DNA of 42,656 nt from Campylobacterales bacterium (lineage in GTDB: Bacteria > Campylobacterota > Campylobacteria > Campylobacterales > QNZT01): positions 1 through 42,656 of the forward strand of contig JALUNR010000051.1 of NCBI GenBank assembly GCA_027055005.1. Reading direction: 5' to 3'. Shown here piece after piece: positions 76 through 42,645 of the stretch (the first letter of the stretch is position 1; each line of letters starts with the position of its first letter). The notes under the pieces were generated by a model. The model was not told where the DNA came from, ran no database searches, and saw only the letters and a program-made list of their open reading frames with translations. A program made the position numbers and the translations under genes.

Positions 76-399
76 ATGAAAAAAATTGCAATATTTTTAA
101 CAATTAGTACTTTTGTATTTGCTGATGTTAATGGCAAAGATGTATTTGAAACTTACTGTTGGGGATGTCATCATCAAACCGCAGTAGCTTTTGGACCTCC
201 CTTTGAACAAATAGCATCAAAAAGAGATGCTAATCAAATAAGAGCTATGATAACAGACCCAAAAACTGTCTCAAAAGTTTTTGGATACAAAAGAAATGCT
301 ATGCCAGCTTTTAAACTAAAAGAGGATGAACTTCAAGCTATAACAAGATATATACTAAGTTATAAGCCAAAAGACACCAACCAAACAAAGGTAAAATAA
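76..399 (+). CDS. nirC: Small periplasmic monoheme cytochrome c, NirC/c55X-like
   Basis: Signal peptide, CWGCH heme motif, distal NAMP Met ligand; stop overlaps the nirJ start. Confidence 0.7.
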   Translation: MKKIAIFLTISTFVFADVNGKDVFETYCWGCHHQTAVAFGPPFEQIASKRDANQIRAMITDPKTVSKVFGYKRNAMPAFKLKEDELQAITRYILSYKPKDTNQTKVK

Positions 400-1520
400 T
401 GTTCAGACTCTCAAATCTACTCTCATCAGTAGTAAATGATAAACCAGTAAGAGAGCTAAATGGAAGCATAGCTATCTGGAACTTTACAAACAGATGTAAC
501 CTAAACTGCCTTCACTGCTACTCAAAATCAGGACTCGATGCAACTGATACTTTAAGTTTTGAAAAGATAGTAGAAACTCTACCAAAACTAAAAAAGACTG
601 GAGTAAAGTTTCTAATCTTTAGTGGTGGAGAACCATTAACAAGAAAAGATATATATGATATAGCTGATGAGTGTAAAAAACTTGGAATCATAACCTATCT
701 ATCAACAAATGGACTCTATGTTGGAAAAAACAATGCCCAAAAAATCCTAGATACTTTCAACTATATAGGTATATCTATTGATGGTGATGAAGAGAGTCAT
801 GACTACTTTAGAGGATTAAAGGGAAGTTTTAAAGAATCCCTAAAAGCAGTAGAACTACTAAACAGTTTTCATCAAACAAAAGTAGGAATAAGATTTACTA
901 TCACAAAAGATACTATAAAGGATTTAGAGTTTATTTTTAAACTAGCTGAAGAAAAAATGATACCAAAAGTATATATTTCTCACTTAGTTTATAGTGGTAG
1001 AGGGCTTGATAATCTCAAAATGGATATAACAAAACAAGAGAGAAAAAAGGCTGTTAATTTCATCATTGATAAAGCATTTTACTACTTTGAGAACAATATA
1101 GATATAGAGATAGTAACTGGAAATATGGAGGTCGATGCAATACTATTTTTAGATAGATTTTCTCAAAAATATCCTCACCTAAAAGGTGAAATGACAAAAA
1201 GATTAAAAAAATGGGGTGGGAATAGTGCCGGGAGGAAACTCTTAAATATAAATCCAGAGGGTGATGTAAAACCAGACCCTTTTTTCCCACTTACTATTGG
1301 AAATATTTTAAAAGATAATTTCCTTGATATATGGCAAGACAAACCAAGTGAGCTTTTGCTAAGATTAAGAGAACATCCAAGAAAACTAAAAGGTATATGC
1401 CAAAATTGTGAATATTTGGATATTTGCAACGGTGGAAGTAGAAGCAGAGCAAATGCAATACATGAAGACCTTTGGGAGAGTGATCCTAGTTGTTATATAA
1501 AGGGAGAAAATAATGGGTAA
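399..1520 (+). CDS. nirJ: Radical SAM heme d1 biosynthesis protein NirJ
   Basis: MFRLS N-terminus, CNLNCLHC SAM cluster motif, SGGEP, HLVYSGRG, WGGNSAG, C-terminal CxxC-x5-C...DPSC auxiliary cluster; next to cytochrome c and SUMT genes. Confidence 0.85.
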   Translation: MFRLSNLLSSVVNDKPVRELNGSIAIWNFTNRCNLNCLHCYSKSGLDATDTLSFEKIVETLPKLKKTGVKFLIFSGGEPLTRKDIYDIADECKKLGIITYLSTNGLYVGKNNAQKILDTFNYIGISIDGDEESHDYFRGLKGSFKESLKAVELLNSFHQTKVGIRFTITKDTIKDLEFIFKLAEEKMIPKVYISHLVYSGRGLDNLKMDITKQERKKAVNFIIDKAFYYFENNIDIEIVTGNMEVDAILFLDRFSQKYPHLKGEMTKRLKKWGGNSAGRKLLNINPEGDVKPDPFFPLTIGNILKDNFLDIWQDKPSELLLRLREHPRKLKGICQNCEYLDICNGGSRSRANAIHEDLWESDPSCYIKGENNG

Positions 1521-2247
1521 AGTCTATCTAACAGGAGCAGGACCTGGAGATATAGAACTACTAACAGTAAAAGCTTTAAAAGTAGTACAAAAGGCTGATG
1601 TTATCATTTATGATAGATTAGCAAATCCTGAGATATTAAAAGAAGCAAAAGATGGATGTGAATTTGTTTTTGTAGGTAAAGAGGATTCTCACCATACCTT
1701 GCCTCAAGAAGAAATAAATGAAGTTATATATCAAAATGCCCTAAAATACGAAACAGTAGTAAGACTAAAGGGTGGAGATCCTTTTGTATTTGGGAGAGGT
1801 GGAGAAGAAGGCTTATATTTAAAAGAAAGAAATATAAGATTTGACTTTATTCCTGGTGTTACTTCAGCTATTGCTGTTCCAGAATATGCTGGTATCCCTG
1901 TAACTCATCGAGGCGTAACAGTATCATTTAGAGTAGTAACTGGACATGAAAATCCTAAAAAAGAAAAGTCACAAATCCCATGGGGAAACTATAAAAGTGA
2001 TGATACTATTATATTTTTGATGGGTCTTCATCGTCTAAAATTTATAACAAAAAAACTCATTGAGATTGGAAAACCAAAAGATTATCCAGTAGCTGTTATA
2101 AGTAAAGGCACTACAAAAGATGAAAAAACTGTTATAGGAACTCTAAGTGACATTTATGAAAAAGCAAAAGATTTGCCAACTCCTGCTCTTATAGTAGTGG
2201 GAGAAGTTGTAAAACTTCATGATAAACTAAGTTGGTGGGAAAAATAA
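1513..2247 (+). CDS. cobA: Uroporphyrinogen-III C-methyltransferase (CobA/SUMT; NirE role by context)
   Basis: GAGPGD, YDRL, RLKGGDPFVFGRGGEE, PGVTSA, GIPVTHRG motifs. Confidence 0.93.
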   Translation: MGKVYLTGAGPGDIELLTVKALKVVQKADVIIYDRLANPEILKEAKDGCEFVFVGKEDSHHTLPQEEINEVIYQNALKYETVVRLKGGDPFVFGRGGEEGLYLKERNIRFDFIPGVTSAIAVPEYAGIPVTHRGVTVSFRVVTGHENPKKEKSQIPWGNYKSDDTIIFLMGLHRLKFITKKLIEIGKPKDYPVAVISKGTTKDEKTVIGTLSDIYEKAKDLPTPALIVVGEVVKLHDKLSWWEK

Positions 2248-2287: not shown

Positions 2288-2596
2288 ATGTTAAAGTTTG
2301 CCATATTTTTTTCTTTAGTTGTTTTCCTATGTGCTAAAGATACTAATAATACTAAAGTACTCATAAAAGATACTAATGTCACAAAAAAGACAACCTCTAA
2401 TCTTTCTAAAAATAAACTACTACAAAAACACTTAAAAGAACAAATGAAAAGAGAAGCCAAATATGCTAAAGAAAAAATGTTCTACAAGGGAAAAGATTAT
2501 AACTTAACTGAACATCAAGTAGATCCAAACTCACTTAAAAAGATAAAACCCATTGAACCTGAATACGATTTTGATATGGATCATGTTTATGATTGA
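2288..2596 (+). CDS. Hypothetical exported protein
   Basis: AAGGA RBS, hydrophobic signal peptide, Lys-rich middle, acidic/aromatic C-terminus. Confidence 0.7.
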   Translation: MLKFAIFFSLVVFLCAKDTNNTKVLIKDTNVTKKTTSNLSKNKLLQKHLKEQMKREAKYAKEKMFYKGKDYNLTEHQVDPNSLKKIKPIEPEYDFDMDHVYD

Positions 2597-3072
2597 TTTT
2601 TAGATTCCTTAAAAAGTTTTTTGAAATCATTTTTTTCCTCAAAAGTTTTAAAAGCACCTTCTGGTATAAAATAATGATTTGGATACTTAATTATCAAAAT
2701 TCCACTGCCTACATCTACTAAGTTTTCTATTTCATTCCATTTCCAAAACAGATTATCATGAAAGAATTTTATACCCTCACTATCCACAAGTAAAGATATA
2801 TCTTTTTCACCTTCAAGATTTTTTAAAAACCTTCTCTTAGCTATTATTTTTTTACCATAATACCAATAAAACAGCATGACAGTTGCAAAAATTAATACAG
2901 CTACTTTAGCTTTTAAAAGTGCACCAACTATACCATATTGCAAAATAGCAATAAAAAACCAACCTATATACTTTTTTGCACTATGATTAAATTCATATTT
3001 ATAAAGTTCATCAAAACTATTTTTTGCTACTTCTTTATCCCATACAAAATCTAATTTTAACTCTTTAGACAT
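2587..3072 (-). CDS. Two-TM membrane protein, YcxB-like
   Basis: Two TM helices followed by a W.EI...YFIPE.AF...EE...F C-terminal pattern; start moved to ATG 3072, which overlaps the end of the upstream gene (track start 3093). Confidence 0.6.
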   Translation of the reverse strand: MSKELKLDFVWDKEVAKNSFDELYKYEFNHSAKKYIGWFFIAILQYGIVGALLKAKVAVLIFATVMLFYWYYGKKIIAKRRFLKNLEGEKDISLLVDSEGIKFFHDNLFWKWNEIENLVDVGSGILIIKYPNHYFIPEGAFKTFEEKNDFKKLFKESKNQS

Positions 3073-3670
3073 GTTCTTCATTTTCCTCTTCATAAATATC
3101 TTCTCTACATATCACTTTTTCTCTCTCCAAGTCATCTAAAAGAATTTTAGTTTCATCATATAACTTATAGAAAATTTTTGAGTTTTTATTGAAAAGTTTT
3201 TTTTGTTTTTTTGCATATAACCAAGCAAATAAAATAGAACTTGCAAAAACAGCATATATCCATAATTGCCACTCTTTTAAATCCAATAAAACTATAAAAT
3301 ACTGTACAGAAAAAAGTACAAAAAACTCTATTGAAAAGATTATTACTAAAACTGAACTATGTTCAAAATCTAGTGTATATTTTTCTATATCTTTCATCTT
3401 TGCAAGATTGTTATTTATTTTTTCTACTTTTTTATGATAAGCATCATTTATCAAAGATTTATCTATTTTATCTATATGAATATTACTTAAATTATACTCA
3501 ACATTTAACTGCTTATACTCTTCTAAAATCTCTGGATTATCTTTCATAATTTTAAGTATTTCTTCAACACTTAACCTATTTTTACCAGCTAATTTTTCAG
3601 CATCCTGGAGGATTAAATTATAAAGACCCACCTCTTTAATCTCTCTTGCAACTCTTTTTAGATTTGTCAA
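3065..3670 (-). CDS. Hypothetical membrane protein (two TM helices)
   Basis: 201-aa ORF with TTG start and AGGAAG RBS; hydrophobic hairpin at residues ~107-153. Confidence 0.75.
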   Translation of the reverse strand: MTNLKRVAREIKEVGLYNLILQDAEKLAGKNRLSVEEILKIMKDNPEILEEYKQLNVEYNLSNIHIDKIDKSLINDAYHKKVEKINNNLAKMKDIEKYTLDFEHSSVLVIIFSIEFFVLFSVQYFIVLLDLKEWQLWIYAVFASSILFAWLYAKKQKKLFNKNSKIFYKLYDETKILLDDLEREKVICREDIYEEENEEHV

Positions 3671-3740: not shown

Positions 3741-5414
3741 TTATGCTTTGTGATTTTCAGCTATAGTTTCTGGTTCTATACCATAACTTGCTGTTTTATC
3801 TTCTGCAGGTAAAAATATACCTATAAGACCTTTAATTCCTACTGACATTACTATATTGTATAAAAATATAAACCAAGCTATAAGTACCATACTTCCACAA
3901 ATAGCAGCATATATCATAAGTGGATTAAATTCACCATGAATATATAAGTGTCTTCTAAGCATTCCATCAAGTCCTGCCATACCACCAAATGCACCCATTC
4001 CAATACCACCTATTAGATATAACCAAAAGTGAGCATTTGAAAGTTTTTTAGAATACATCTCAGTATTATTTGTAACAATTGGCCATAGTACATATACAGC
4101 ACTATAAAGTGTCATATAAAGTCCAACTATTAAAGCTATATGAACATGCGCCATAATAATCCATTGAGTATTATGTAAAACTCTATTCATACCCATATCT
4201 GCTTGAATAATAGCAGCTGGAACTGCTAAACCAAACCCAACAAGTCCACCAAGAAGGTATTTTAACTCCATAGTCATTTTAAGTGGTCTAGCTTTCCATA
4301 GAGTAACTAAAGTGATAAATAGTGCAAGTCCTTGAGTTAGAAGCTCAAATGCTGTAACCATCTCTCCACTTATTAGTTTCATCATCTCAGGTTGTCCTTG
4401 ATCAGCTAAAAGGTGATGAGACCAAACCATCCAAGAAACTAAAAGTTCAAGCATTAAGGCAGCTCTTGCAACATTTTCCATAAATAGTTTTTGACCTGTT
4501 ATCAAAGTAGCTAACAAATACCAAGAACCAGCAACATATATAAGAACAAGACCGTCAGCAACTAGATCAAGTCCCCACCAAAAGTAGTTTTTATATAAAA
4601 GAGAATCAATAACTGTTACATCAAGAGCATGTCCACTAGCATCAAAAACTAAATACACAAGTACTAAAACACCTGCACTTAAAATAACTATCGCATCCAA
4701 GAAAGTATCAACTGTACCTCTAAAAATAGCAACAACAGGAAGAGAAAGTGCTGGTTCTTTTGTATAAGGCGGCTTACCTGCAAGTTTATGTAAAAGATTT
4801 AACATACCATCTATACCAAAACCACTTATCAAAAGCTCTTTTGTGGTTTTATTTTTATGAACACCAACTCTTTGAAATATAGTCGCATAAATATTATATA
4901 TAAAGCCAAGTGTTCCAAGCATAATCAAAGCAACACCTATTATAAATACAATACCACCAACAACACTAAACTGTTTAGTATCAGCAGGAAGTGGCCAATA
5001 TAAAGTATATAATGGAGCATATTGCCATACAAAAGCTGCTATCCAAGCCATAGCAGTACCTACTGTTATAAGTATCCAAACTATATTTGCCAACTTTACA
5101 CTATAAAGAGGTTTTTTAGTCAAAAATGGAACTAAAAACATAAAAGCACCAAAAACCAACTGATATGTAGAACCAAAAATACCTACTATTGGGTGAACAG
5201 TCATAATAGAAAAATAATGTTTAGGATGATTAAACATCTCTGGTAGAGGATTAACTGGACCAGTTTGCACCATTTTCATTATCATACCTTCAATAGCAAC
5301 TAATCCAAAAAATAAAAAACTCATTACAACTGCACGCAGTGTTACTTTTTGCAATGCATTTAAGCTTTTATGATCAAAATTTGTACCATTTATTAGATTT
5401 TTTGTAAAACTCAT
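3741..5414 (-). CDS. Heme-copper oxidase superfamily subunit I, gNOR-type putative nitric oxide reductase
   Basis: Multi-TM protein with H74 (helix II), WSHH333-334, HVH423-425 and GMLRR; helix VI reads YFWWGLDLVADG instead of HPEVY or HLWVE. Confidence 0.85.
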   Translation of the reverse strand: MSFTKNLINGTNFDHKSLNALQKVTLRAVVMSFLFFGLVAIEGMIMKMVQTGPVNPLPEMFNHPKHYFSIMTVHPIVGIFGSTYQLVFGAFMFLVPFLTKKPLYSVKLANIVWILITVGTAMAWIAAFVWQYAPLYTLYWPLPADTKQFSVVGGIVFIIGVALIMLGTLGFIYNIYATIFQRVGVHKNKTTKELLISGFGIDGMLNLLHKLAGKPPYTKEPALSLPVVAIFRGTVDTFLDAIVILSAGVLVLVYLVFDASGHALDVTVIDSLLYKNYFWWGLDLVADGLVLIYVAGSWYLLATLITGQKLFMENVARAALMLELLVSWMVWSHHLLADQGQPEMMKLISGEMVTAFELLTQGLALFITLVTLWKARPLKMTMELKYLLGGLVGFGLAVPAAIIQADMGMNRVLHNTQWIIMAHVHIALIVGLYMTLYSAVYVLWPIVTNNTEMYSKKLSNAHFWLYLIGGIGMGAFGGMAGLDGMLRRHLYIHGEFNPLMIYAAICGSMVLIAWFIFLYNIVMSVGIKGLIGIFLPAEDKTASYGIEPETIAENHKA

Positions 5415-6025
5415 TTATTACCTCCATCTTTACATCCAACTACTTCAACGAAATCTTTAACTTGCATTAAATCTTTTCCATCCTCACTATATTGAGCTGG
5501 TCCAGAATACTCAGTAGATGTCATATCAAAAACTCCATTATGATTAAATGTCCATAACATTACATTTTTATCCAAAATACTAGTAACATCAGTACCAGGA
5601 TTTACTTGCATTTGAGTTACAAGCGAACCATCTTTTCTAAATAAACCAAATCCATAAACTAAATCTTCACTTCTAATATCAAACTTGATTGTTTGACCAC
5701 ATTGGATAGTGATTTTTTTAGGAATTCCTACCCATTTATGATCTTTAATCTTAAAGCTATATGAAGCATCAGGTTTAATATGATCTCTTGAAATATCTTG
5801 AGATACCCAAGGTATACTATTATATGTAAATATATGATGTCCTACACCACCTGCAACTAAAAATGCAATATAACCATAAAATGGTATTCGCACAACTGAC
5901 TTAACCTTTTCTTTTCTTGTTAAGTTATAACCAAACCATGCAACAATAGATATAATCATCACTGCATAGATGGTATAAGCAACTTCGTGAAAAGCCAACA
6001 ACTCAATAGAGCTCTTAAATGTCAT
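5411..6025 (-). CDS. Heme-copper oxidase subunit II homolog lacking CuA ligands
   Basis: Two N-terminal TM helices plus a cupredoxin-like domain (SEDLVYGFG, MQVNPG, STEYSGP); ATGA overlap with subunit I; AAGGAG RBS. Confidence 0.85.
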   Translation of the reverse strand: MTFKSSIELLAFHEVAYTIYAVMIISIVAWFGYNLTRKEKVKSVVRIPFYGYIAFLVAGGVGHHIFTYNSIPWVSQDISRDHIKPDASYSFKIKDHKWVGIPKKITIQCGQTIKFDIRSEDLVYGFGLFRKDGSLVTQMQVNPGTDVTSILDKNVMLWTFNHNGVFDMTSTEYSGPAQYSEDGKDLMQVKDFVEVVGCKDGGNK

Positions 6026-6084
6026 CTTTTTCTCCTTATAATTAAAATAACTATGTATTATAAGATAAAAAATAATTTTTTTAC

Positions 6085-6098
6085 TTGATTTATATCAA
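6085..6098 (-). promoter_or_regulatory. Fnr/Dnr/Nss-type box of the atypical NOR promoter (-10 TATAAT at 6062-6057)
   Basis: Perfect TTGAT-ATAA-ATCAA read on the minus strand, 22 nt from TATAAT, matching class II geometry. Confidence 0.85.
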
Positions 6099-6153: not shown

Positions 6154-6339
6154 TTAAAAAAATTTTAAAAAGATACCTATAAATAAAGACAACAATACTG
6201 TTATAGCTAAAACAATGCTATTATATATTTTTGAAGAAAAATTAAAGTTTTCAAACAATAATTCTGTAATTTTTATAGCAGGAAATATCATAAAAAATAA
6301 CATAACAACAGCAAATACAAGTGTTAAAACTATATTCAT
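6154..6339 (-). CDS. Small two-TM membrane protein
   Basis: 61 aa, almost entirely hydrophobic; ATG overlaps the stop of 6339..6710. Confidence 0.7.
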   Translation of the reverse strand: MNIVLTLVFAVVMLFFMIFPAIKITELLFENFNFSSKIYNSIVLAITVLLSLFIGIFLKFF

Positions 6340-6710
6340 TATTTTATGCCATAATAATTTTTTAAAAAATTCAATTCTTTATCATCTTTTATTTTTATAC
6401 TTTGAAAAACTTTATTACCATCAAATATAATTAATTTTTTATTAGCAATTTTTAAATGAGCTTTGCCCCATTTTTTTTGTAATCTATCCATATCATGAAA
6501 AACTTCCATATTTGATGGTTTTTCTTTAAAATTTTTATCATTTTTACTTTTTATGACAAGTCCACCTAAACTTTTTTCAAAATAATATGGAGAATATTTT
6601 TTTATTTTTAAATATATTTTATTTTTATTCTCACCTTTAGAATTTATAAAAGCGCTATAAGATATGAGAAAAAAAGCAACTATTAAGGCAAAAGGCAAAT
6701 ACTTATTCAT
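6339..6710 (-). CDS. Hypothetical membrane-anchored/periplasmic basic protein
   Basis: AAGGA RBS, N-terminal hydrophobic helix, 123 aa. Confidence 0.75.
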   Translation of the reverse strand: MNKYLPFALIVAFFLISYSAFINSKGENKNKIYLKIKKYSPYYFEKSLGGLVIKSKNDKNFKEKPSNMEVFHDMDRLQKKWGKAHLKIANKKLIIFDGNKVFQSIKIKDDKELNFLKNYYGIK

Positions 6711-6765: not shown

Positions 6766-6779
6766 TTGATAAATATCAA
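6766..6779. promoter_or_regulatory. Fnr/Dnr/Nss-type box between divergent genes
   Basis: Perfect TTGAT-AAAT-ATCAA; 22 nt to TAGCAT (6802-6807, preceded by TGn) on + and 22 nt to TATCCT (6743-6738) on -. Confidence 0.8.
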
Positions 6780-6824: not shown

Positions 6825-7190
6825 ATGAAAGAATTTTTTATTTTAGAAGGTGCATATTTAATATTGGCTTTTTTGATACTTTTAGTAACACTATTTGTTA
6901 CAACAAGACCTTTTATGAGCAAAAAAGCCCCCAAAAAAGGACTTATATCTGTTGGGTTAGTATTGGCTTTTTTCATCTTTTTACACTTTTACTTGACAAC
7001 AAACAGAATAAATAGCGTAAAAAAAGCTTTTTTAAATGGAGAAAAAATTATTTGTGAAAGCAGAGCTAATACTAAAGCTGCACAATCAATAATAATAAAA
7101 AAAGATTTTGGATGGTCAATAAAAGGTGATTATTTTATATCTCCAAACTATATTAGAGACTTTCATATAGCTAGATGTATAATATATTAA
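6825..7190 (+). CDS. Hypothetical membrane protein (two TM helices plus a small domain with two Cys)
   Basis: AAGGAG RBS; two hydrophobic helices; IICES and IARC cysteines. Confidence 0.78.
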   Translation: MKEFFILEGAYLILAFLILLVTLFVTTRPFMSKKAPKKGLISVGLVLAFFIFLHFYLTTNRINSVKKAFLNGEKIICESRANTKAAQSIIIKKDFGWSIKGDYFISPNYIRDFHIARCIIY

Positions 7191-7230: not shown

Positions 7231-7244
7231 TTGATATAAATCAA
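7231..7244 (+). promoter_or_regulatory. Fnr/Dnr/Nss-type box of the norCB operon promoter (-10 TATAAT at 7267-7272)
   Basis: Perfect TTGAT-ATAA-ATCAA, 22 nt from TATAAT. Confidence 0.85.
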
Positions 7245-7310: not shown

Positions 7311-7649
7311 ATGGAACAAATTGTTGTATGGCATAACATAGCACCATCTGAGTTTTTAAGGATCTTTGTTGTGTCCACTCTTGTTCTAGTTTTTGGAGTA
7401 GGATATGCTGGTACCATAACCCTCTCTAAAATGCAATACTTTTCCAAAAAGTGGCAAATCCTCGGTTATATATTTTGGGCACTACAAACATACTGCTTAT
7501 ATGATATGTCCATTTTAATCCAAAGTAGCCATTTTACCACAAAAGTTTTAATGGTTACTATGATTGTTTATCTCTTTGTACCTCATCTATACTTCTATCT
7601 AATAGATGAAAGTGAAAAGAGATATGAAAAAAATGGCCATCCTCATTAA
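7311..7649 (+). CDS. Small three-TM membrane protein leading the norCB operon
   Basis: AAGGA RBS, three hydrophobic segments, ends 26 nt before norC. Confidence 0.78.
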   Translation: MEQIVVWHNIAPSEFLRIFVVSTLVLVFGVGYAGTITLSKMQYFSKKWQILGYIFWALQTYCLYDMSILIQSSHFTTKVLMVTMIVYLFVPHLYFYLIDESEKRYEKNGHPH

Positions 7650-7675: not shown

Positions 7676-8341
7676 ATGGAAGAAAATCTTTCAGTGTGGA
7701 CGAGTATATCGTTTTGGCGAAGATCAGCAGCTTGGGTTACTGGTTTTGCAACTATTCTTTTAATTTGGCTAACATTTGACACTATTGGTCAAATTACTAT
7801 GGGTACAGATAAAGATTTGCAAAGTGGAGTAACCAAAAGAGTACCAGCTCCTACTGTAATCAATTATCATATTGATTACAAAATGAGTCAAAAAAGAGGT
7901 CATGAAGTTCCTGTTATTGGTCATAAAGAGCCTTTTTTTGGTAAAGAGTGGTCAATTAAAGATGCTAGAGCATTATTACACTTAGGAAAACTTACAGTTC
8001 AAGCAAAAAACTGTATGGATTGTCATACACTTTTAGGAAATGGGGCTTATTATGCACCAGATCTTACAAAAGCATGGCTTGATCCAAAGTGGAACAATGG
8101 AACTATGGAAGGTATAACTGGTAAAAAAACAAAAGAAGAAGCAATAGCTGAGTTTTTACAACATCCATCAAGATACCCAACTCATGCAAGAAAAATGCCA
8201 AATCTTGGTATAACTGCCAAAGAGGCTCAAGGTATAGTTGCATTTTTAAAACATATGAGTTCAATAGATACAAACGGTTTCCCTAGAAATTTCTCAAAAA
8301 CTGTTGACCAATATAAAGCAGGAGGAACAAATGCTCACTAG
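7676..8341 (+). CDS. norC: Nitric oxide reductase cytochrome c subunit NorC
   Basis: N-terminal TM, NCMDCHTLLGNGAYYAPDLT, RKMPNLG Met ligand; AAGGAGG RBS. Confidence 0.95.
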   Translation: MEENLSVWTSISFWRRSAAWVTGFATILLIWLTFDTIGQITMGTDKDLQSGVTKRVPAPTVINYHIDYKMSQKRGHEVPVIGHKEPFFGKEWSIKDARALLHLGKLTVQAKNCMDCHTLLGNGAYYAPDLTKAWLDPKWNNGTMEGITGKKTKEEAIAEFLQHPSRYPTHARKMPNLGITAKEAQGIVAFLKHMSSIDTNGFPRNFSKTVDQYKAGGTNAH

Positions 8342-9755
8342 TATAAAAACAGATAATATATCGCCAACTAAAAAACTGGGGATGATGTACTTTAGAGTTG
8401 CTATTGTTCTTTTTGGAGCACAACTTCTAATGGGTTTAATCGCTGCCATACAATTTATATATCCAAATTTTTTATTTGAGATATTTGATTTTTCAGTAGC
8501 AAGGATGGTTCATATAAATGCACTTGTAGTATGGATGCTATATGCTATGATTGGTTCAGTTTATTATATGCTTCCTGATGAAACAGGAGAAGAAGCAGTA
8601 GGACTTGGACTTGGAAAACTAGCTTTTTGGGTACTTACTGCTGCAGTTGCAGTTGTTGTTTTAGTATTTATTTTTATCCAAGTTGGACCTGGTAAAGAGA
8701 GTACTATTTGGTTTATAAATGAAGGTAGAGAGTATATAGAAGCTCCAAGATGGGCTGATATAGGTATAGTCGTTGTGGTTTTAATCTTTTATTATAATGT
8801 TTTCTTTACATTCTTAAAAGGTAGAAAAACTGGAATCATGACTGTCATGATAGCCAACCTTTTAGCTCTAGCTGGTCTCTACTTAGCAGGTATGTTCTTC
8901 ACTGACAATATTTCTATGGATCAGTACTGGTGGTGGTGGGTTATCCACTTATGGGTTGAAGCTACTTGGGAAGTTTTTGTTGGTACCCTAGCTGCTTATG
9001 CTCTTATCAAAATAATCTCTGCAAAAAGAGAAATAGTTGAGATGTGGTTATGGATAGAGGTATTAATGCTATTTGGTTCAGGAATTTTAGGTCTTGGACA
9101 TCACTATTTTTGGATAGGTACTCCTGAGTATTGGTGGGAGATTGGTGCACTTTTTTCTTCACTTGAACCAGTTCCACTAGTTGCTATGTTTGTTCATGTA
9201 CTATATGATTGGGGTAAAGAACAAGGTGCAAATGGAAATAAACCAGCTATTATGAATGGTCCTGCTATGGCTTGGATTGTTACAAATGCATTTGGTAACT
9301 TCCTTGGTGCTGGTATATGGGGATTTTTCCATACATTGCCTCAAGTAAATATCTATACTCACGGTACTCAGTTTACTGCAGCTCATGGACACTTAGCTTT
9401 CTTTGGAGCTTATGCAACTATTCTTATAGGTATGATGTATATGGGTGTTCAAGGAGCATATGGTGTAAAACAAATGAAAGCAACTTTCAACTCTAAAATG
9501 GCAATCTTTTTGATAACATTTGGTGTTATGGGTATGACTATTGCTCTAACCATCGCTGGATATGAGCAAGTTTTAGTTGAAAGAGCTGAACTAGGTGGCG
9601 GTTGGGATGCATTCTTTACTGCTCAAAACTTACCTTGGTATGTTCAAGCACAAGTTTGGAGAACAATCATGGGTATAGTAACATTTATAGGTTTTGTATA
9701 TCTTGTGTTGGATCTTCTAACTATAGGAACAAAAGCAAAATCTCAAGAAGTATAA
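8331..9755 (+). CDS. norB: Nitric oxide reductase catalytic subunit NorB (cNOR)
   Basis: RMVHIN, EGREYIE, WWWVIHLWVEATWE, GHHYFWIG, SLEPVP, THGTQFTAAHGHLAFFGAY; ATG 8331 follows GGAGG (track start is TTG 8304). Confidence 0.96.
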   Translation: MLTSIKTDNISPTKKLGMMYFRVAIVLFGAQLLMGLIAAIQFIYPNFLFEIFDFSVARMVHINALVVWMLYAMIGSVYYMLPDETGEEAVGLGLGKLAFWVLTAAVAVVVLVFIFIQVGPGKESTIWFINEGREYIEAPRWADIGIVVVVLIFYYNVFFTFLKGRKTGIMTVMIANLLALAGLYLAGMFFTDNISMDQYWWWWVIHLWVEATWEVFVGTLAAYALIKIISAKREIVEMWLWIEVLMLFGSGILGLGHHYFWIGTPEYWWEIGALFSSLEPVPLVAMFVHVLYDWGKEQGANGNKPAIMNGPAMAWIVTNAFGNFLGAGIWGFFHTLPQVNIYTHGTQFTAAHGHLAFFGAYATILIGMMYMGVQGAYGVKQMKATFNSKMAIFLITFGVMGMTIALTIAGYEQVLVERAELGGGWDAFFTAQNLPWYVQAQVWRTIMGIVTFIGFVYLVLDLLTIGTKAKSQEV

Positions 9756-11190: not shown

Positions 11191-12042
11191 TTACGTAGTA
11201 ATAAATTTCTTTCTTATTCTATGACTCTCATAAGTTCCTAATATTTTAACTTCAGTAGAGAAAAAATCTAACTCTTCTAAAGCTCTTTTCATACAATCAG
11301 AATCAATATGCCCCTCTATATCAGCATGAAATCCAGTAGCATTTAGTGCGTTTTCAGCCGAGTAACTCTCTAATTTTAAAAGATTTATCCCATTTGTAGC
11401 AAAACCACCTAAGGCTTTATAAAGCGAGGCAGGAATATTTCTTACTTGAAAGATGATAGATGTTGAATAACTCTTACTTTTGTTAAATTTAGGTATTTCT
11501 TTATTTTTTGAAAGTATAAAAAATCTAGTAGTATTCCCTTTTATATCTTCAAAATGCTCTTGTAAAATCTTTAAATCATAAATTTTAGCTGCTAATGATG
11601 AAGCGATAGCTCCAAAAGATTTATCATTTAACTCTTTTATCTCTTTTGCACTTCCAGCAGTGTCTAGTTTTGCTATCGGTGTTAGATTTAGCTTACTTAT
11701 ATTATGAGAGCATTGTGCTAAAGCTTGTGGATGTGAAGCGACATATCTTAAATTTTCTATTTTTGATCCCTTTATTCCAAGCAAACAGTGAACTACTGGT
11801 TGAAAATGTTCCCCTACCACATAAAGATTCATCTTTGGAATAAGTCTATATATCTCCTCTACCCTTCCAGCAGTAGAATTTTCAAGTGGAATCATAGCAT
11901 ATATAGCTCTTTCATCCTCTACCATTCTCATAGCTTCGCTAAAAGTCTCACAAGCAACAGCATTTAAGTTTGGATAGGCACTACGACAAGCTTGCTCACT
12001 ATAAGCTCCACTAACACCTTGATAAGCTATTTTTGTAGTCAT
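11191..12042 (-). CDS. Monofunctional prephenate dehydratase with ACT domain
   Basis: IAYQGVSGAYSE, PLENSTAG, SHPQALAQC, NTTRF, LLKLESY; no chorismate mutase domain; ATG 12042 chosen because track start 12129 lies inside porB. Confidence 0.9.
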   Translation of the reverse strand: MTTKIAYQGVSGAYSEQACRSAYPNLNAVACETFSEAMRMVEDERAIYAMIPLENSTAGRVEEIYRLIPKMNLYVVGEHFQPVVHCLLGIKGSKIENLRYVASHPQALAQCSHNISKLNLTPIAKLDTAGSAKEIKELNDKSFGAIASSLAAKIYDLKILQEHFEDIKGNTTRFFILSKNKEIPKFNKSKSYSTSIIFQVRNIPASLYKALGGFATNGINLLKLESYSAENALNATGFHADIEGHIDSDCMKRALEELDFFSTEVKILGTYESHRIRKKFITT

Positions 12043-12082
12043 GATTTTCTTTTGTTTTGAAGTTATAAGGGAAGAAGAGTTT

Positions 12083-13033
12083 TTAAACTCTTGCTTCCTC
12101 TCTTCTTTGTAGGTACTCCCATCTAGCATCTACTCTTTTTTGCCACTCTTCAAGAACATGAGCATTTTCAGGTTTAAACAAGTGTTTAAATCTTCCTTGA
12201 GATGCTAAGTAATCTTTAACAGGGATTACTTTTTTAGGTCTGTAAAGGATGTTTAACTCTGTACCATCTATTATTTCATATAGAGGAAAAACTAAACTCT
12301 CTGTTGCTAAATCTGATATATCGATAGTTTGATTTGGAGCAAATTTCCACTCAGTTGTACATGCACTCATAGCATTTATATAACAAGGTCCTTCATTAGC
12401 TAATGCTTTTTGAAAAGATTTAACCATAAGTTTCCATTTGTTTGGTGCTACTTGAGCAACATAAGAGGCTCCATTAGCCGCCATAATACCAACCATATCT
12501 TTTTTGTTTTGCTTCTCTCCATAACTTACGCGACCTGCTGGACTTGTTGTAGTTGATGCACCTATGGGAGTAGATGAACTTCTCTGACCTCCAGTATTTG
12601 CATAAACTTCATTGTCAAGACAGATATATGTAAAGTCATGACCTCTCTCAACAGCTCCACTTAACCACTGAAAACCTATATCATAAGTACTTCCATCTCC
12701 ACCAAATGCAACAAATTTTACACTTCTATCTGGATCTTTTAAAGTTCCTTTTCTTTTTCTAGCTTTATACATAGCCTCTGCACAACTAGCAGTAGTAGCA
12801 GCATTTTCAAATCCAACATGTATCCAACTTGTATCCCAAGAAGTATATGGATAAACTGCTGTTGAAACTTCTAAACATCCTGTATTTGTAGAGATAACCA
12901 AGTCATCATCTGTACAGTTCATAAGCTCTCTTACAATGATAGAGTGAGCACACCCTGGACAAAGTAGGTGAGCTCCTTCAAATCTATCATTTGAAGTTGA
13001 AAACTCTTTTAAATTTTTTATTATTTTACTCAT
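12083..13033 (-). CDS. porB: Pyruvate:ferredoxin/flavodoxin oxidoreductase beta subunit
   Basis: HLLCPGC, TGCLEV, GGDG...DNEVYANTGGQ TPP-binding motif. Confidence 0.95.
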   Translation of the reverse strand: MSKIIKNLKEFSTSNDRFEGAHLLCPGCAHSIIVRELMNCTDDDLVISTNTGCLEVSTAVYPYTSWDTSWIHVGFENAATTASCAEAMYKARKRKGTLKDPDRSVKFVAFGGDGSTYDIGFQWLSGAVERGHDFTYICLDNEVYANTGGQRSSSTPIGASTTTSPAGRVSYGEKQNKKDMVGIMAANGASYVAQVAPNKWKLMVKSFQKALANEGPCYINAMSACTTEWKFAPNQTIDISDLATESLVFPLYEIIDGTELNILYRPKKVIPVKDYLASQGRFKHLFKPENAHVLEEWQKRVDARWEYLQRREEARV

Positions 13034-13045
13034 AACACTCTCCCC

Positions 13046-14272
13046 CTACTTTTGCTCAAAAAATTCTAAAGTTGGACCTCTTAGTCCACTAAATTTTTGT
13101 ACTTTACCGATAATCTTACCAGCTTTTGCACACTCAGCCAAATCTTTATATATACCTTTTAAATGCTCTTGAGTCATATCTCTACCACCAAGACCATAGA
13201 TATAGTTTACCATAGGAACAAAGTTTCCACTACTGTACATTGCAGCCGCTACTTCATTATAAAGCATACCCATAGCACCACCTGGTGCACTTCTATCAAG
13301 ACAAGCTACCGCTTTTACATTTGAGAGAGCTTCTCTTATATCATCAAAAGGGAATGGTCTTAGTACTCTTGGAGCAACAACACCAGCTTTTATACCATCT
13401 TTTCTCATCTCTTCTGCAGCCATTACAGCACTCTCAACAGTAGTTCCAAGAGCAACGATAGCTACTTCTGCATCTTCCATCAAGTAACTTTCAACTCTGT
13501 TATATTTTCTACCAGTCTTTTTTTCAAACTCTGCAAAAACTTTCTCGATAACATCTCTACTATCCATCAAAGCTTTATGTTGTTTAGCTTTATGCTCAAA
13601 GTGCCAATCCTCTTCAGTTTGAGCACCATAAGTAACAGCTCTACTAAAATCAAGTAAATCATCTTTTGATTTATATTCACCAATAAAAGCATAAGCATCT
13701 TCATCTTGTAAAGGCTTAACCTTTTGGGCAGTATGAGAACATATAAATCCATCTTGATGAACTGCAACAGGAAGCCTTACACTCATATCCTCGCCTATTT
13801 TAAATGCACAAAGCATCAAATCATAAGATTCTTGTGGGTTAAATGCACAAAGATTAATCCAACCTGCATCTCTTGTTAAGTACATATCTGAGTGATCACC
13901 ATTTACATTTAATGGTGCAGCTAAAGCTCTGTTTACCATTGCTAGTACGATAGGAAGTCTCATACCACTTGCTTGATAGAGTACTTCTACCATCAAAGCT
14001 ATACCTTGAGAACTACTTGCAGTTGCAACTCTACCACCAGCTGCAGCTGCACCAACACAACCACTCATAGCAGCATGCTCACTCTCAACCATAACAAACT
14101 CACCATCGATATAGCCATCAGCTAAAAACTTAGCATAGTTTTGAACTGTTGGAGTTGATGGTGTAATAGGATATGCCGCAACAACATCAATCTGAGCTTG
14201 TCTCATAGCTTGTGAAAAAGCCATGTTACCATCCCAAACTTCTACCTCTTGTAACTCTAATTTCTCTGCCAT
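13046..14272 (-). CDS. porA: Pyruvate:ferredoxin oxidoreductase alpha subunit
   Basis: AAYPITPST, VESEHAAMS, NRALAAP, YGLGGRD. Confidence 0.95.
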   Translation of the reverse strand: MAEKLELQEVEVWDGNMAFSQAMRQAQIDVVAAYPITPSTPTVQNYAKFLADGYIDGEFVMVESEHAAMSGCVGAAAAGGRVATASSSQGIALMVEVLYQASGMRLPIVLAMVNRALAAPLNVNGDHSDMYLTRDAGWINLCAFNPQESYDLMLCAFKIGEDMSVRLPVAVHQDGFICSHTAQKVKPLQDEDAYAFIGEYKSKDDLLDFSRAVTYGAQTEEDWHFEHKAKQHKALMDSRDVIEKVFAEFEKKTGRKYNRVESYLMEDAEVAIVALGTTVESAVMAAEEMRKDGIKAGVVAPRVLRPFPFDDIREALSNVKAVACLDRSAPGGAMGMLYNEVAAAMYSSGNFVPMVNYIYGLGGRDMTQEHLKGIYKDLAECAKAGKIIGKVQKFSGLRGPTLEFFEQK

Positions 14273-40483: not shown

Positions 40484-41584
40484 TTATAGGACACTTCTAA
40501 AAACCTCCAAAAATTTATCATTTTGCTCAGGTTTTCCAATAGTAACCCTTATGGCATTTAACCCATAGGATGTTAAATCTCGCACAATTATACCCTTTTT
40601 AAGCAAAATATTTGCTATTTCTTTAGAATTAAATTTTTCTTCAAAGAGTAAAGTAATAAAATTTGTATAACTATTTATAAAATTTATTTTATTTCTTTGT
40701 GCAAAATTTTCATATTTTTTCATCTGAGAAAAGTTTTGCTGGATGGAAAATTTTACAAATTCTTTATCTTTTAAAGCTTCTACTGCTGCTTCTAGGGATA
40801 GGGTTGTGATATTAAAAGGTGGACGAAGTTTATATAAGTTTTCTATTATAAATTTATTTGATATTCCATACCCAACTCTCATTCCTCCAAGTCCATATGC
40901 TTTTGAAAAAGTTCCAAGATATAAAACATTTGAAAAAGTATTTATCAAATCTTTTACATTTATAGCATAATCTTTATCTTTAAAAGATGCATACTCATTA
41001 TATGCTCCATCTATAACAATTAAAGTATTTGCATCGACCTCTCTTATAAATTTATAAACTTCTTTTGTTTGTAAACTTTCTCCTAGAGGATTATTTGGAA
41101 GACATAAAAATATGATAGAAATTTTATCTTTGTTTTTTTGATAAATATCATAAAACTCTTCTAAGTTATGAGTATTTGATGGAGTTTTAAAAACTTTTGC
41201 TCCTATCTGTTTTGCATATATTTCATACATCGCAAATGTTACGCCAGCTGTTAAAATCCCTTTTTGTCTGTTTGCCTTTGCTCTTATAGCAAACTCTATA
41301 ACTTGATCACTTCCAGCACCTATTATGATATTTTTAGTGTCAACTTCAAACCTTTTTGATAACCCATTTTTTAAGCGATACATACTATCATCTGGATATT
41401 GGCTCATTAAGTGAGCAGAGTTTTTTACTACCTCTACTACTTTTGGGCTTACTCCGTTTGGATTTTCATTTGATGCTAATTTTATCACATTTTTAGGTTC
41501 TATTCCAAACTCTCTTACTACTAACTCAATAGGTTTCCCACCCTCATAAGTTACTATATCTTTAAGTTCATCGTTAAAAATCAT
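40484..41584 (-). CDS. hisC: Histidinol-phosphate aminotransferase
   Basis: [41 protein letters not shown]; ATG 41584 in ATGA overlap with pheA. Confidence 0.95.
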
Positions 41585-42645
41585 TTTAATTCTCCATTTA
41601 CATAACTTCCAAGCCATTTTATAGAGTTTTTATCTTGTTTTAATAGTTTTTTAAAACTTTCATCTTCTCTATGTCCTTCAAAATCTATAAAAAACATAGA
41701 CTTAAACTTTTCCTCTTTTAATGGACGAGATTCTATTTTTAAAAGATTTATTCCTACTTCTTTAAATTTTTGTAAAAAATCAACCAAACTTCCAGCCTTG
41801 TCATCTAGTTTTGCAAGTATTGAAGTTTTATCAAAGTTACTTTTTCCATTTTTTATATCACTTAAAATTAGAAATCTTGTGCGATTTGCTTCGTTGTCCT
41901 CTATCTTTTCAAATAAAATTGGTAGATAATGAATTTTTGCTGCTATTTTAGAACAGATTGCTGCTGAGTCAGGATCGTCTTTTGCTCTTCTCGCAGCTGC
42001 TGAGGTTGAACGAGTAGGAACAAACTCAACATCAGTCAAAAAATGCTCATCCAAAAAGTTTATACACTGATTGTATCCTTGCGGATGAGAATAAATCCTT
42101 TTTATTTTTTTTATATCATCTTGTGTTGTAGCAAATGAGTGATGTATATCCATATACTCTTCTGCTACTATGAGAGAGTCATACTTAGCCAAACTATCAA
42201 GTGTAGCTCCTACTGCTCCATCAGTGTTGTTTTCTATCGGAACTACTCCAAATTTTACCTCTTTATTTTGTAAAACTTTAAAAACTCCCTCGATTGAAGA
42301 GATAGGTAGATAGTTACTCATCGCTCCAAACTTTAACTCTGCAGCTTGATGAGAGTAACTTCCCTCTGGCCCAAGATATGCTATTCTCTCAGGAAGTTCC
42401 AAGTTTCTACTAACTGCAAAAATTTCCATAAAAAGAGCTTCTATTGCTTCTTTATTTAAAAGTCCTTTGCTCATTTGTTCCAATCTATCAATGATAGCTT
42501 TTTCCCTCTCTGGCCGATAAATAGCACCTTTTGTTTGCTGTTTAAATTCTCCTACTTTTTTAACTACTTCCATCCGCTTGTTTAGTAGTTTTAAAAGTTC
42601 ATTGTCGAGATTGTCTATCTGGTTTCTTAAATCGTCTAAGTTCAT
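41581..42645 (-). CDS. pheA: Bifunctional chorismate mutase/prephenate dehydratase
   Basis: LR.QID.LD AroQ domain, [27 protein letters not shown]. Confidence 0.96.

What the first reader, a model, noticed from the sequence alone, without database searches (positions are those of the whole stretch)
3741..5414. Heme-copper oxidase with a two-aspartate active-site helix (D283-x3-D287)
Seen: the heme ligands (H74, H423, H425), the helix VII pair (H333/H334) and the RR loop are intact. Helix VI reads WWGLDLVADG (codons 4568-4566 and 4556-4554). The neighbouring NorB has WVIHLWVE here and O2 reductases have H-x3-Y, so both the normally invariant CuB/FeB His and the cross-linked Tyr (or NOR Glu) position are Asp. 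Extra Glu residues sit in helix VIII (E351, E357). Established: a His-to-Asp change is the signature reported for the B-family-derived gNOR clade, which to my knowledge is defined mainly by bioinformatics. Inference: the site is a carboxylate-rich non-heme Fe centre that reduces NO or does other N-oxide chemistry rather than O2 reduction. No heme o/a synthase gene is in the window, so it may use b hemes.
Basis: partly seen in the sequence, partly recalled or inferred. Interest (0 to 1): 0.85.

Follow-up and report, generated by a model that had tools for sequence, protein, structure and literature searches.

The report
Known gNOR-type nitric oxide reductase
This gene encodes the catalytic subunit of a "gNOR", a published but never purified relative of respiratory oxidases in which two aspartates replace the usual metal-binding histidine and the tyrosine, and which most likely turns nitric oxide into nitrous oxide in sulfur-oxidising vent bacteria.

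Summary
ORF 3741-5414(-) is a 557-aa heme-copper-superfamily subunit I with intact heme ligands, the helix VII His pair and the RR loop, and with WWGLDLVADG in helix VI. D283 and D287 are kept in 241 of 241 homologues, so they are not an error or a private mutation.

The gNOR family is defined by Asp for an active-site His, Asp at the Tyr position and a CuA-less cupredoxin subunit II. It is reported from Sulfurimonas/Sulfurovum and sulfidic habitats (PMC11214002, PMC8756737). All four sequence criteria I could test are met. The relatives are Campylobacterota: 80 of 80 named loci, and 84 of 301 Campylobacterales genomes.

New here:
- A four-gene cassette (subunit II, subunit I, a Campylobacterota-only membrane protein, a YcxB-like protein).
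- A Crp/Fnr-type box (TTGAT-N4-ATCAA) about 73 nt upstream, also present before nirS, napA, norCB and a Crp/Fnr regulator gene.
- No heme O or heme A synthase in the 94.8%-complete genome.
- Three near-complete relatives with NirS and no other NOR-type enzyme found.

NO reduction, the metal and the electron donor remain untested. Interest is low to moderate.

The parts
3741..5414 (-). gNOR catalytic subunit I (P0001, 557 aa): 12-TM heme-copper-superfamily fold. Heme ligands H74, H423, H425. Metal-site residues H333, H334, D283, with D287 at the Tyr/Glu position. Invariant E357 in helix VIII.
   Evidence: Pfam COX1 E 6.1e-51. AF2 model pLDDT 86.2, pTM 0.89. Foldseek TM 0.71-0.77 to solved COX1 chains. 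Conservation in 241 sequences.
4554..4568 (-). Codons for D283-L-V-A-D287, the two-aspartate stretch of helix VI.
   Evidence: Coordinates. 241/241 conservation. Aligned to H-x3-Y / H-x3-N / H-x3-E of other HCOs.
5411..6025 (-). Subunit II (P0121, 204 aa): two N-terminal TM helices plus a cupredoxin domain without CuA ligands. Its stop overlaps the subunit I start (ATGA), and a GGAGG lies upstream of that start.
   Evidence: Profile A4 hits only T. thermophilus ba3 subunit II and engineered derivatives in the PDB (10 of 10 hits, best E 5.1e-08). AF2 plus Foldseek match COX2/CuA domains. CuA positions are Y124 76/76, S170 74/76, S174 70/76. Overlap seen.
3065..3670 (-). Conserved downstream gene o3065 (P0122, 201 aa): a Campylobacterota-only membrane protein. 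Its TM segment is nearly invariant and carries E115 and Q123. Function unknown.
   Evidence: Found co-directional after subunit I in 71 of 80 loci. Alignment A5. No Pfam family; Atlas neighbours are Campylobacterota hypotheticals. Not found next to the distant gNORs.
2587..3093 (-). Fourth cassette gene o2587 (P0392, 168 aa): a YcxB-like membrane protein.
   Evidence: Present in 65 of 80 loci. Pfam YcxB E 0.0042, below cut-off. Atlas neighbours carry PF14317.
6085..6098 (.). Perfect Crp/Fnr-type palindrome TTGATATAAATCAA, 73 nt upstream of the subunit II ATG. A TATAAT at 6057-6062 would put its centre near -41.5 (inference; no mapped transcription start).
   Evidence: The same box type lies within 250 nt upstream of subunit II in 52 of 72 loci, 39 of them at -66 to -81. 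Background is 0.033 per 250 nt.
6766..6779 (.). Second perfect Crp/Fnr-type box, in the divergent intergenic region between ORF 6339-6710(-) and ORF 6825-7190(+).
7231..7244 (.). Third perfect Crp/Fnr-type box, upstream of ORF 7311-7649(+) and norCB.
7676..9755 (+). Neighbouring canonical cNOR: NorC-like cytochrome c (7676-8341) and NorB (8304-9755, helix VI WWWVIHLWVE).
   Evidence: Pfam hits. Alignment.
76..2247 (+). Context genes: cytochrome c, a radical-SAM/SPASM protein and a tetrapyrrole methylase. I read these as the tail of a nir / heme d1 biosynthesis cluster (inference from domain content).
   Evidence: The same three genes lie next to the gNOR cassette in 5 of 80 loci (the cytochrome c in 7).

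Best explanation
The ORF is the catalytic subunit of a gNOR, a B-family-like member of the heme-copper oxidoreductase superfamily.

Proposed mechanism (inferred):
- Electrons pass from a low-spin heme b (ligands H74/H425) to a high-spin heme b (ligand H423).
- The high-spin heme faces a non-heme metal, most likely Fe, held by H333, H334 and D283. D287 sits where cNOR has its Fe-binding Glu and where oxidases have the cross-linked Tyr.
- Invariant E357 in helix VIII, shared with cNOR, would supply protons.
- Two NO are reduced to N2O at this heme/non-heme centre.

The enzyme works with a CuA-less cupredoxin subunit II, so the donor is probably menaquinol rather than cytochrome c. It is expressed from a four-gene operon under a Crp/Fnr-type activator, together with nap, nirS and norCB.

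Shown here: family membership by sequence criteria, conservation, gene cassette, the shared box, and the lack of heme O/A synthases. Inferred: the metal, the substrate, the donor and the regulation.
For: Fold and cofactor ligands. COX1 E 6.1e-51. AF2 model pLDDT 86.2 with TM 0.71-0.77 to solved subunit I chains. Heme and helix VII His residues conserved in 240-241 of 241.

Active site. D283 and D287 are 241/241 and E357 is 241/241. D283 aligns with His in 12 of 12 non-gNOR rows. D287 aligns with Tyr, Asn or Glu. E357 aligns with the NorB Glu, where the other 11 rows have I, L, V or S. A related HCO, P0225, reads WWGLHSYVNQ, which fixes His on position 283.

Subunit II. It is a cupredoxin related to ba3 subunit II with all aligned CuA ligands replaced. 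It sits directly upstream in 79 of 80 Campylobacterota loci and 66 of 80 distant loci. 13 of the 14 distant loci without it have under 210 nt of upstream DNA.

Clade. The D-x3-D sequences are monophyletic, 18 of 18, support 0.992.

Literature. The gNOR description matches (PMC11214002 passages; PMC8756737 Table A4). A 2-His-1-Glu non-heme Fe site in myoglobin has NOR activity (title of Lin 2010 JACS, reference 42 of PMC11214002, seen).

Context.
- Heme d1-type genes and norCB flank the cassette.
- Perfect TTGAT-N4-ATCAA boxes lie before the gNOR operon, norCB, nirS, napA and a Crp/Fnr regulator gene. That is 6 of the 24 perfect boxes in the genome, against 9 for the reversed control pattern.
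- The box is kept upstream of subunit II in 52 of 72 loci.

Hemes and quinone. No CtaA match, and the only UbiA-type match is MqnP at 458.7 bits.

Sole-NOR cases. G070, G061 and G064 (99-100% complete) have NirS and gNOR but no NorB-like match at E <= 1e-40. Besides gNOR, their strong COX1 matches are only a cbb3-range chain (345-367 bits) in G070 and G064 and nothing in G061. G064 also has one weak, unclassified COX1 match of 27 bits in a 432-aa frame (37.5 bits with its neighbours, over the cut-off).
Against: - No activity, metal or heme data exist for any gNOR in the papers I could read.
- 68 of 84 gNOR-positive Campylobacterales genomes also carry a NorB-like gene. gNOR is therefore usually not the only candidate NOR and could do something else.
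- 8 of the 16 gNOR-positive, NorB-negative genomes have no NirS match; NirK was not searched.
- The residue register of helix VI differs between aligners. I could not read model coordinates to measure the geometry.
- The subunit I profile scores higher on A-family quinol oxidases (1.4e-24) than on ba3 (4e-15), so B-family descent is not shown by my data for subunit I.
- A preprint (10.1101/592808, passage) reports a His-to-Glu heme-ligand change in gNOR. I do not see that here.
- The Crp/Fnr box is a consensus match. No binding or transcript data exist.
Confidence: 0.7

Rival explanations
1. It is a gNOR by sequence, but its physiological reaction is not respiratory NO reduction. It could do other N-oxide or small-molecule chemistry at the carboxylate-rich centre, such as NO dismutation, N2O or nitrite chemistry, or NO detoxification only.
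For: - Most carriers also have cNOR (68 of 84).
- 8 of 16 norB-less carriers lack a NirS match.
- No gNOR has been assayed in the papers read.
- The related NOD family shows that HCO relatives can be proposed for other NO chemistry (PMC11214002 passage).
Against: - It shares a Crp/Fnr box with nap, nirS and norCB.
- Three near-complete genomes have NirS with gNOR as the only NOR-type HCO found.
- The cNOR-like carboxylates at 287 and 357 fit NO reduction.
Confidence: 0.2
2. It is an unusual O2 reductase (a micro-aerobic terminal oxidase) that works without the His-Tyr cofactor.
For: Best sequence and fold matches in the PDB are O2 reductases. The genome has only one other oxidase, cbb3.
Against: - No Tyr at the cross-link position, and Y293 is not conserved.
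- One metal-binding His is missing in 241 of 241 sequences.
- PMC11214002 states that O2 reduction in this superfamily needs the Tyr cofactor (passage).
- There is no CuA and no cytochrome c subunit.
Confidence: 0.04
3. The two aspartates are a sequencing error, a private mutation or a decaying gene.
For: None found.
Against: - 120 of 120 close homologues have WWGLDLVADG, and 241 of 241 keep both Asp.
- The frame is open, and the protein is 79-99% identical across 80 genomes of several genera.
- Subunit I is the best-conserved gene of the cassette.
Confidence: 0.01

Closest known systems
gNOR family of the heme-copper oxidoreductase superfamily (Hemp & Gennis 2008 and Sievert et al. 2008, as cited; Murali et al. 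2024, PMC11214002)
   Same: Asp for an active-site His, Asp at the Tyr position, a CuA-less cupredoxin subunit II, occurrence in Sulfurimonas/Sulfurovum and sulfidic or vent settings, and occurrence in both Bacteria and Archaea (one search names Thermoprotei and Methanomethylicia MAGs).
   Different: Nothing that conflicts with membership. Items I did not see in the passages read:
- the two Campylobacterota-specific downstream genes;
- a second N-terminal TM helix with H13 and H63/H64 in subunit II of this lineage;
- the Crp/Fnr box.
The His-to-Glu heme-ligand change reported for gNOR in preprint 10.1101/592808 is not present here.
cNOR (NorCB), encoded 2.3 kb away in the same window
   Same: Same superfamily fold. 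A carboxylate four residues after the helix VI ligand position (Glu in NorB, D287 here). A Glu at the same helix VIII column (E357). The same upstream box type.
   Different: cNOR keeps the helix VI His, uses a cytochrome c subunit (NorC) and groups with the C-family. P0001 is only 17% identical to the window's NorB. No chain named as a NOR is among the 48 PDB sequences hit by the gNOR profile.
B-family ba3 cytochrome c oxidase of Thermus thermophilus
   Same: Subunit II is recognisably related: it is the only family hit by profile A4 in the PDB. Subunit I has the same fold.
   Different: ba3 has CuA, CuB with three His, and the His-Tyr cofactor. All of these are replaced here.
E. coli cytochrome bo3 / B. 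subtilis aa3-600 quinol oxidases
   Same: Cupredoxin subunit II without CuA (stated for bo3 in PMC11214002). They are the best-scoring solved relatives of subunit I (1.4e-24 and 1.8e-20). Two TM helices in subunit II.
   Different: They are O2 reductases with the full CuB/Tyr site and use heme O/A. This genome shows no heme O or A synthase. I did not test the quinol-site residues.
Engineered myoglobin with a 2-His-1-Glu non-heme iron site (Lin et al. 2010, reference 42 of PMC11214002; only the reference line was seen)
   Same: A heme facing a 2-His-1-carboxylate site, reported there to have NOR activity.
   Different: A designed soluble protein, with Glu rather than Asp. It is an analogy, not a relative.

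Membership tests
gNOR | Subunit I of the heme-copper oxidoreductase superfamily with both heme-ligand sets | tested here: met
   COX1 E 6.1e-51. AF2/Foldseek TM 0.71-0.77. H74, H423, H425 conserved in 240-241 of 241.
gNOR | One of the three active-site His replaced by Asp (PMC11214002) | tested here: met
   D283 is 241/241. It is aligned to His in 12 of 12 other HCO rows. No His lies anywhere in residues 263-332. HMMER and hhalign chose registers that put Leu there instead.
gNOR | Cross-linked Tyr absent, Asp at that position (PMC8756737 Table A4) | tested here: met
   D287 is 241/241. It is aligned to Tyr in 8, Asn in 3 and Glu in 1 of the other rows.
gNOR | Cupredoxin subunit II lacking the CuA ligands | tested here: met
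   The CuA motif itself is recalled knowledge.
gNOR | Falls inside the clade defined by the authors' tree and curated HMM (for example with the Sulfurimonas denitrificans or Damo_1118 proteins) | not testable with these tools
   No named reference sequence or HMM was available. Indirect support: the D-x3-D clade is monophyletic with support 0.992, and the taxa match.
gNOR | Conserved quinol-binding residues (Murali, Hemp & Gennis 2022) | not tested
   The paper is not in the library, so the residues are unknown to me.
gNOR | NO reductase activity | not testable with these tools
   Proposed but not measured for gNOR in the passages read.
cNOR/qNOR | FeB bound by three His plus one Glu; cytochrome c subunit or fused quinol domain | tested here: not met
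   The helix VI His is Asp. The partner subunit is a cupredoxin.
A/B-family O2 reductase | CuB with three His and a His-Tyr cofactor; CuA in cytochrome c oxidases | tested here: not met

The most novel reading that the evidence does not exclude
In Campylobacterota the gNOR may be a four-component machine. The lineage-specific o3065 has an invariant intramembrane Glu/Gln pair and, in most orthologues, a Cys/His-rich C-terminal tail. It and the YcxB-like protein could be true subunits or metal-insertion factors. The 2-His-2-Asp centre could bind a metal other than Fe, or carry out a reaction other than 2NO to N2O, giving sulfide-tolerant N-oxide chemistry that cNOR cannot do.
Probability: 0.12. 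Interest if true: 0.75.

Novelty: already known. Interest (0 to 1): 0.3.

Why it matters
gNOR is one of the predicted NO reductase families now counted routinely in metagenomes when N2O sources are budgeted (PMC13498772 and PMC13556223, passages). Yet no member has been purified in anything I could read.

Campylobacterota dominate sulfidic vents, seeps and redoxclines. If their gNOR is a sulfide-tolerant, menaquinol-driven NOR, it affects how N2O production in those zones is modelled. It would also show that the metal site of this superfamily works with a 2-His-carboxylate ligand set.

This window gives practical handles:
- cultured carriers exist (Sulfurimonas indica NW8N, L024);
- there are relatives in which gNOR is the only NOR-type enzyme found next to NirS;
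- there is a clear candidate promoter element.

As a discovery, however, it is a re-finding of a described family.

Tried and rejected
1. Single-sequence phmmer against the PDB gave 0 hits at E <= 0.001. Only the 47-sequence profile reached solved structures.

2. NCBIfam has no model for this family. All four hits of P0001 are far below cut-off. The ten distant HCOs I scanned also stayed below every cut-off, so I could not label them A- or B-family. B-family descent of subunit I therefore rests on the literature and on subunit II only.

3. Pfam does not see COX2 in subunit II (1 of 18 members, at E 0.13).

4. Helix VI register. HMMER and hhalign gave registers different from MAFFT. I prefer the ungapped MAFFT register for three reasons:
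- the upstream P-x-L-[YW]-x-N-x-[FI]-W stretch printed aligns without gaps;
- P0225 reads WWGLH at the same place;
- the alternatives put non-conserved or hydrophobic residues at the metal site.

5. Complex prediction with subunit I, subunit II and o3065 as partner gave no verdict (scores 0.02, 0.41, 0.23; mark 0.32). I make no claim either way.

6. The look-up of sequencing runs for RNA listed no RNA holder.

7. blastp found no homologue of o3065 or o2587 next to the 80 distant gNOR loci at E <= 0.01.

8. Considered and rejected: private mutation or error, and O2 reductase (see rivals).

They may already list this clade, its conserved residues and its neighbours.
Full report
THE OBSERVATION

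ORF 3741-5414(-) is open and encodes 557 aa. It matches Pfam COX1 at E 6.1e-51 over residues 24-508. Helix VI reads WWGLDLVADG from residue 279. The neighbouring NorB (8304-9755) reads WWWVIHLWVE at the aligned place. The window has 31% G+C.

IS IT REAL AND CONSERVED?

The word-indexed protein search found 2853 relatives at E <= 0.001 among 8000 scored candidates. The 120 listed are 87-100% identical, and 120 of 120 carry WWGLDLVADG.

The exhaustive search of 50%-identity representatives found 305 proteins at E <= 0.001. Only two full-length close clusters appear: P0123 (59%) and P0124 (44%). The next full-length hit is 27% identical. Both close clusters keep D-x3-D.

A second search seeded with P0124 reached a wider set. 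Sources name some of these as MAGs of Thermoprotei, Methanomethylicia, Actinobacteria, Anaerolineae, Chloroflexota, Bacteroidetes and Dehalococcoidia.

In a MAFFT alignment of all 241 sequences from these searches:
- D283, D287, E357, H333, H334, H414, H423 and H425 are each 241/241.
- H74, R487 and R488 are each 240/241.
- E351 is E in 122 and Q in 119.
- H262, the only His near helix VI, is kept in 56 of 241.

The aspartates are therefore not an error or a private change.

WHICH RESIDUE SITS WHERE?

In the 15-row alignment A1, position 283 is Asp in the three gNOR-type rows and His in all 12 others. Position 287 is Asp in those three, Tyr in 8, Asn in 3 and Glu in NorB. Position 357 is Glu in the gNOR-type rows and in NorB, and I, L, V or S elsewhere.

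Two other methods chose different registers. HMMER placed L282 on the His by inserting one residue. hhalign placed L289 on the His and Y293 on the Tyr using compensating gaps.

I prefer the ungapped register for three reasons:
- The upstream stretch P-x-L-[YW]-x-N-x-[FI]-W, printed for the B. subtilis and E. coli quinol oxidases, lines up without gaps.
- P0225 reads WWGLHSYVNQ at the same place.
- Y293 is not conserved (F in P0123, W in P0124).

Whatever the register, P0001 has no His between residues 263 and 332, so the helix VI ligand His is missing.

The AF2 model is confident (pLDDT 86.2, pTM 0.89; helix 271-306 holds both Asp). It superposes on solved subunit I chains at TM 0.71-0.77. I could not read its coordinates, so the geometry of the site is inferred.

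THE PARTNER SUBUNIT

ORF 5411-6025(-) ends in ATGA, overlapping the subunit I start, with a GGAGG before that start. It has no Pfam family.

A profile of 18 orthologues hits only Thermus thermophilus ba3 subunit II and engineered CuA domains derived from it (10 of 10 PDB hits; best E 5.1e-08; native ba3 6e-05). The AF2 model (pLDDT 73.6) has two TM helices and a beta-sandwich. It matches COX2/CuA and other cupredoxin structures.

At the positions aligned to the CuA ligands (the motif is recalled knowledge), 76 distinct subunit II sequences have:
- Y124 in 76/76.
- S170 in 74/76.
- S174 in 70/76.
- H, N, Q or others at position 178.
- The E172-Y173 pair in the motif S-T-E-Y-S-G-P in 76/76.

So there is no CuA site.

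This gene lies directly upstream of subunit I in 79 of 80 Campylobacterota loci and in 66 of 80 distant metagenomic loci. 13 of the 14 exceptions have under 210 nt of upstream DNA, and one (L156) has room but no hit.

WHAT IS KNOWN

Murali et al. 2024 (PMC11214002; abstract and passages read) describe gNOR as follows:
- It is the first HCO family that replaced an active-site His, by Asp.
- Its cupredoxin subunit II lacks the CuA residues.
- It is possibly quinol-oxidising.
- It is found mainly in sulfidic environments, in Bacteria and Archaea (156 GTDB genomes).
- It is proposed, not shown, to reduce NO. The argument cites a myoglobin model with a 2-His-1-Glu iron site (reference line seen).

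PMC8756737 (Table A4 passage) lists gNOR with D at the Tyr position and no proton channel, in Sulfurimonas, Sulfurovum and Persephonella, citing Sievert et al. 2008. That paper is not held.

The relatives of P0001 in species-representative genomes are all Campylobacterota by record title (80 of 80 kept loci, out of 140 confirmed). They include Sulfurimonas indica NW8N and an Alviniconcha symbiont. 84 of 301 sampled Campylobacterales genomes, in 24 of 89 genera, have a match at E <= 1e-50.

In a FastTree of 32 sequences (18 of the 47 A2 rows plus 14 others), the D-x3-D sequences form one clade. It holds 18 of 18, with support 0.992 and a stem of 0.82.

All four sequence-level criteria of gNOR that I could test are met. 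Placement with the authors' own HMM and tree could not be done.

One published detail does not fit: a His-to-Glu heme-ligand change reported for gNOR in preprint 10.1101/592808 (passage) is not seen here.

Searches for gNOR with Sulfurimonas, aspartate and related terms turned up no biochemical study of a gNOR. Two 2026 papers use gNOR HMMs for annotation only.

CONTEXT AND WHAT I ADD

(1) A cassette. Subunit II, subunit I, o3065 (3065-3670) and o2587 (2587-3093) are co-directional. By tblastn they are present in 79, 80, 71 and 65 of 80 loci, and the misses are largely at contig ends.
- o3065 has no family. Its Atlas neighbours are Campylobacterota hypotheticals. It has a nearly invariant TM segment with E115 and Q123. 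Most orthologues have Cys at three positions plus H200 near the C-terminus; the window's copy lacks those Cys.
- o2587 is YcxB-like.
- Neither was found beside the distant gNORs.

(2) Regulation. A perfect TTGATATAAATCAA lies at 6085-6098, 73 nt before the subunit II ATG. A TATAAT at 6057-6062 would place its centre near -41.5 (inference).
- The window has four perfect boxes. Three of them (6085, 6766, 7231) lie between the gNOR and norCB operons.
- With one mismatch allowed there are 14 matches, against 5.5 expected.
- The box TTGA[TC]-N4-[AG]TCAA occurs within 250 nt upstream of subunit II in 52 of 72 loci, 39 of them at -66 to -81. The background is 0.033 per 250 nt.
- Genome-wide there are 24 perfect boxes, against 9 for the reversed control pattern.
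- Besides the three above, one box lies 120-133 nt before nirS (C40 ORF 2399-4141). One lies about 80 nt before napA. One lies about 50 nt before a cNMP-binding/HTH_Crp gene.
- I read this as one Crp/Fnr-type denitrification regulon that includes gNOR. This is inference; no binding or transcript data exist.

(3) Cofactors.
- The own genome (1.79 Mb, 94.8% complete) has three HCOs: cbb3 (ccoNOQP), NorB and gNOR.
- It has no CtaA match.
- Its only UbiA-family match to the heme O synthase model is MqnP (458.7 bits, against 81.5 for cyoE/ctaB).
- This supports b-type hemes, and menaquinol as the available quinol.
- None of the 47 window ORFs scanned is a heme O or A synthase.

(4) Co-occurrence.
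- 118 of 301 genomes have a NorB-like match at E <= 1e-40.
- 68 of the 84 gNOR carriers have both, and 16 have gNOR only.
- Among those 16, G070, G061 and G064 (99-100% complete) have NirS. Besides gNOR, their strong COX1 matches are a cbb3-range chain (345-367 bits) in G070 and G064 and nothing further in G061. G064 also has one weak, unclassified COX1 match of 27 bits in a 432-aa frame.
- 8 of the 16 have no NirS match.
- The first group fits gNOR acting as the working NOR. The second shows that it is not tied to NirS.

MECHANISM

Most likely the enzyme is a menaquinol-dependent NO reductase. It would hold two b hemes and a non-heme Fe bound by H333, H334 and D283, with D287 and E357 as second-shell or fourth-ligand carboxylates, as in cNOR (the cNOR residue roles are recalled knowledge). 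Membership in gNOR is close to certain by sequence. The reaction, metal and donor are inferred. I put the whole statement at 0.7.

Rivals:
- Another N-oxide chemistry, or pure NO detoxification: 0.2.
- An O2 reductase: 0.04.
- An artefact: 0.01.

VERDICT

The feature defines a family that has been in print since 2008 for this very group of bacteria. Novelty: already known. Interest is 0.3, kept above the floor for two reasons. The family is still uncharacterised biochemically. The cassette, the shared Crp/Fnr box and the NirS-plus-gNOR-only genomes give concrete experimental entry points.

Noticed in passing
window 2587-3670 (-): Two genes of unknown function follow gNOR subunit I in 71 and 65 of 80 Campylobacterota loci, but not beside distant gNORs. 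o3065 has a nearly invariant TM helix with E115/Q123 and, in most orthologues, conserved Cys at three positions plus H200. The window's own copy lacks those Cys.
   Followed up: partly
window 6085-6098, 6766-6779, 7231-7244; own genome C40:4261-4274, 12627-12640, 13380-13393: Perfect TTGAT-N4-ATCAA boxes lie upstream of the gNOR operon, norCB, nirS, napA and a Crp/Fnr-family regulator gene (C40:12689-13330). This looks like one denitrification regulon.
   Followed up: partly
window 6339-6710 (-), 6825-7190 (+), 7311-7649 (+): Three small ORFs without a Pfam family lie between the two NOR operons. The 7311 ORF precedes NorC in 4 of 80 loci, and the other two recur in 2 loci each.
   Followed up: no
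protein P0225 (alignment): A distant HCO relative (472 aa) reads WWGLHSYVNQ in helix VI (His kept, Asn at the Tyr position). It has Tyr instead of His at the column of H423, the high-spin heme ligand.
   Followed up: no
window 5411-6025 (-) and alignment: Subunit II of the Campylobacterota clade has an extra N-terminal TM helix and lineage-specific invariant H13 and H63/H64. The wider family has N at position 63. The motif S-T-E-Y-S-G-P and Y124 are invariant in 76 of 76 sequences and might mark a donor or interface site.
   Followed up: partly
window 8304-8341: The NorB frame called from TTG 8304 overlaps NorC by 38 nt. Several relatives show an in-frame TAG or TAA inside matches that begin at query residues 1-3. 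The true NorB start may therefore lie further downstream.
   Followed up: no
genomes G114, G177, G253, G064, G107, G072, G168: Weak COX1 matches (18-27 bits) occur in open frames of 413-526 aa. These are possibly very remote HCO-like membrane proteins.
   Followed up: no
window 11191-12129 (-) and 41581-42645 (-): There are two prephenate dehydratase genes in one window. The second is fused to chorismate mutase and an ACT domain.
   Followed up: no
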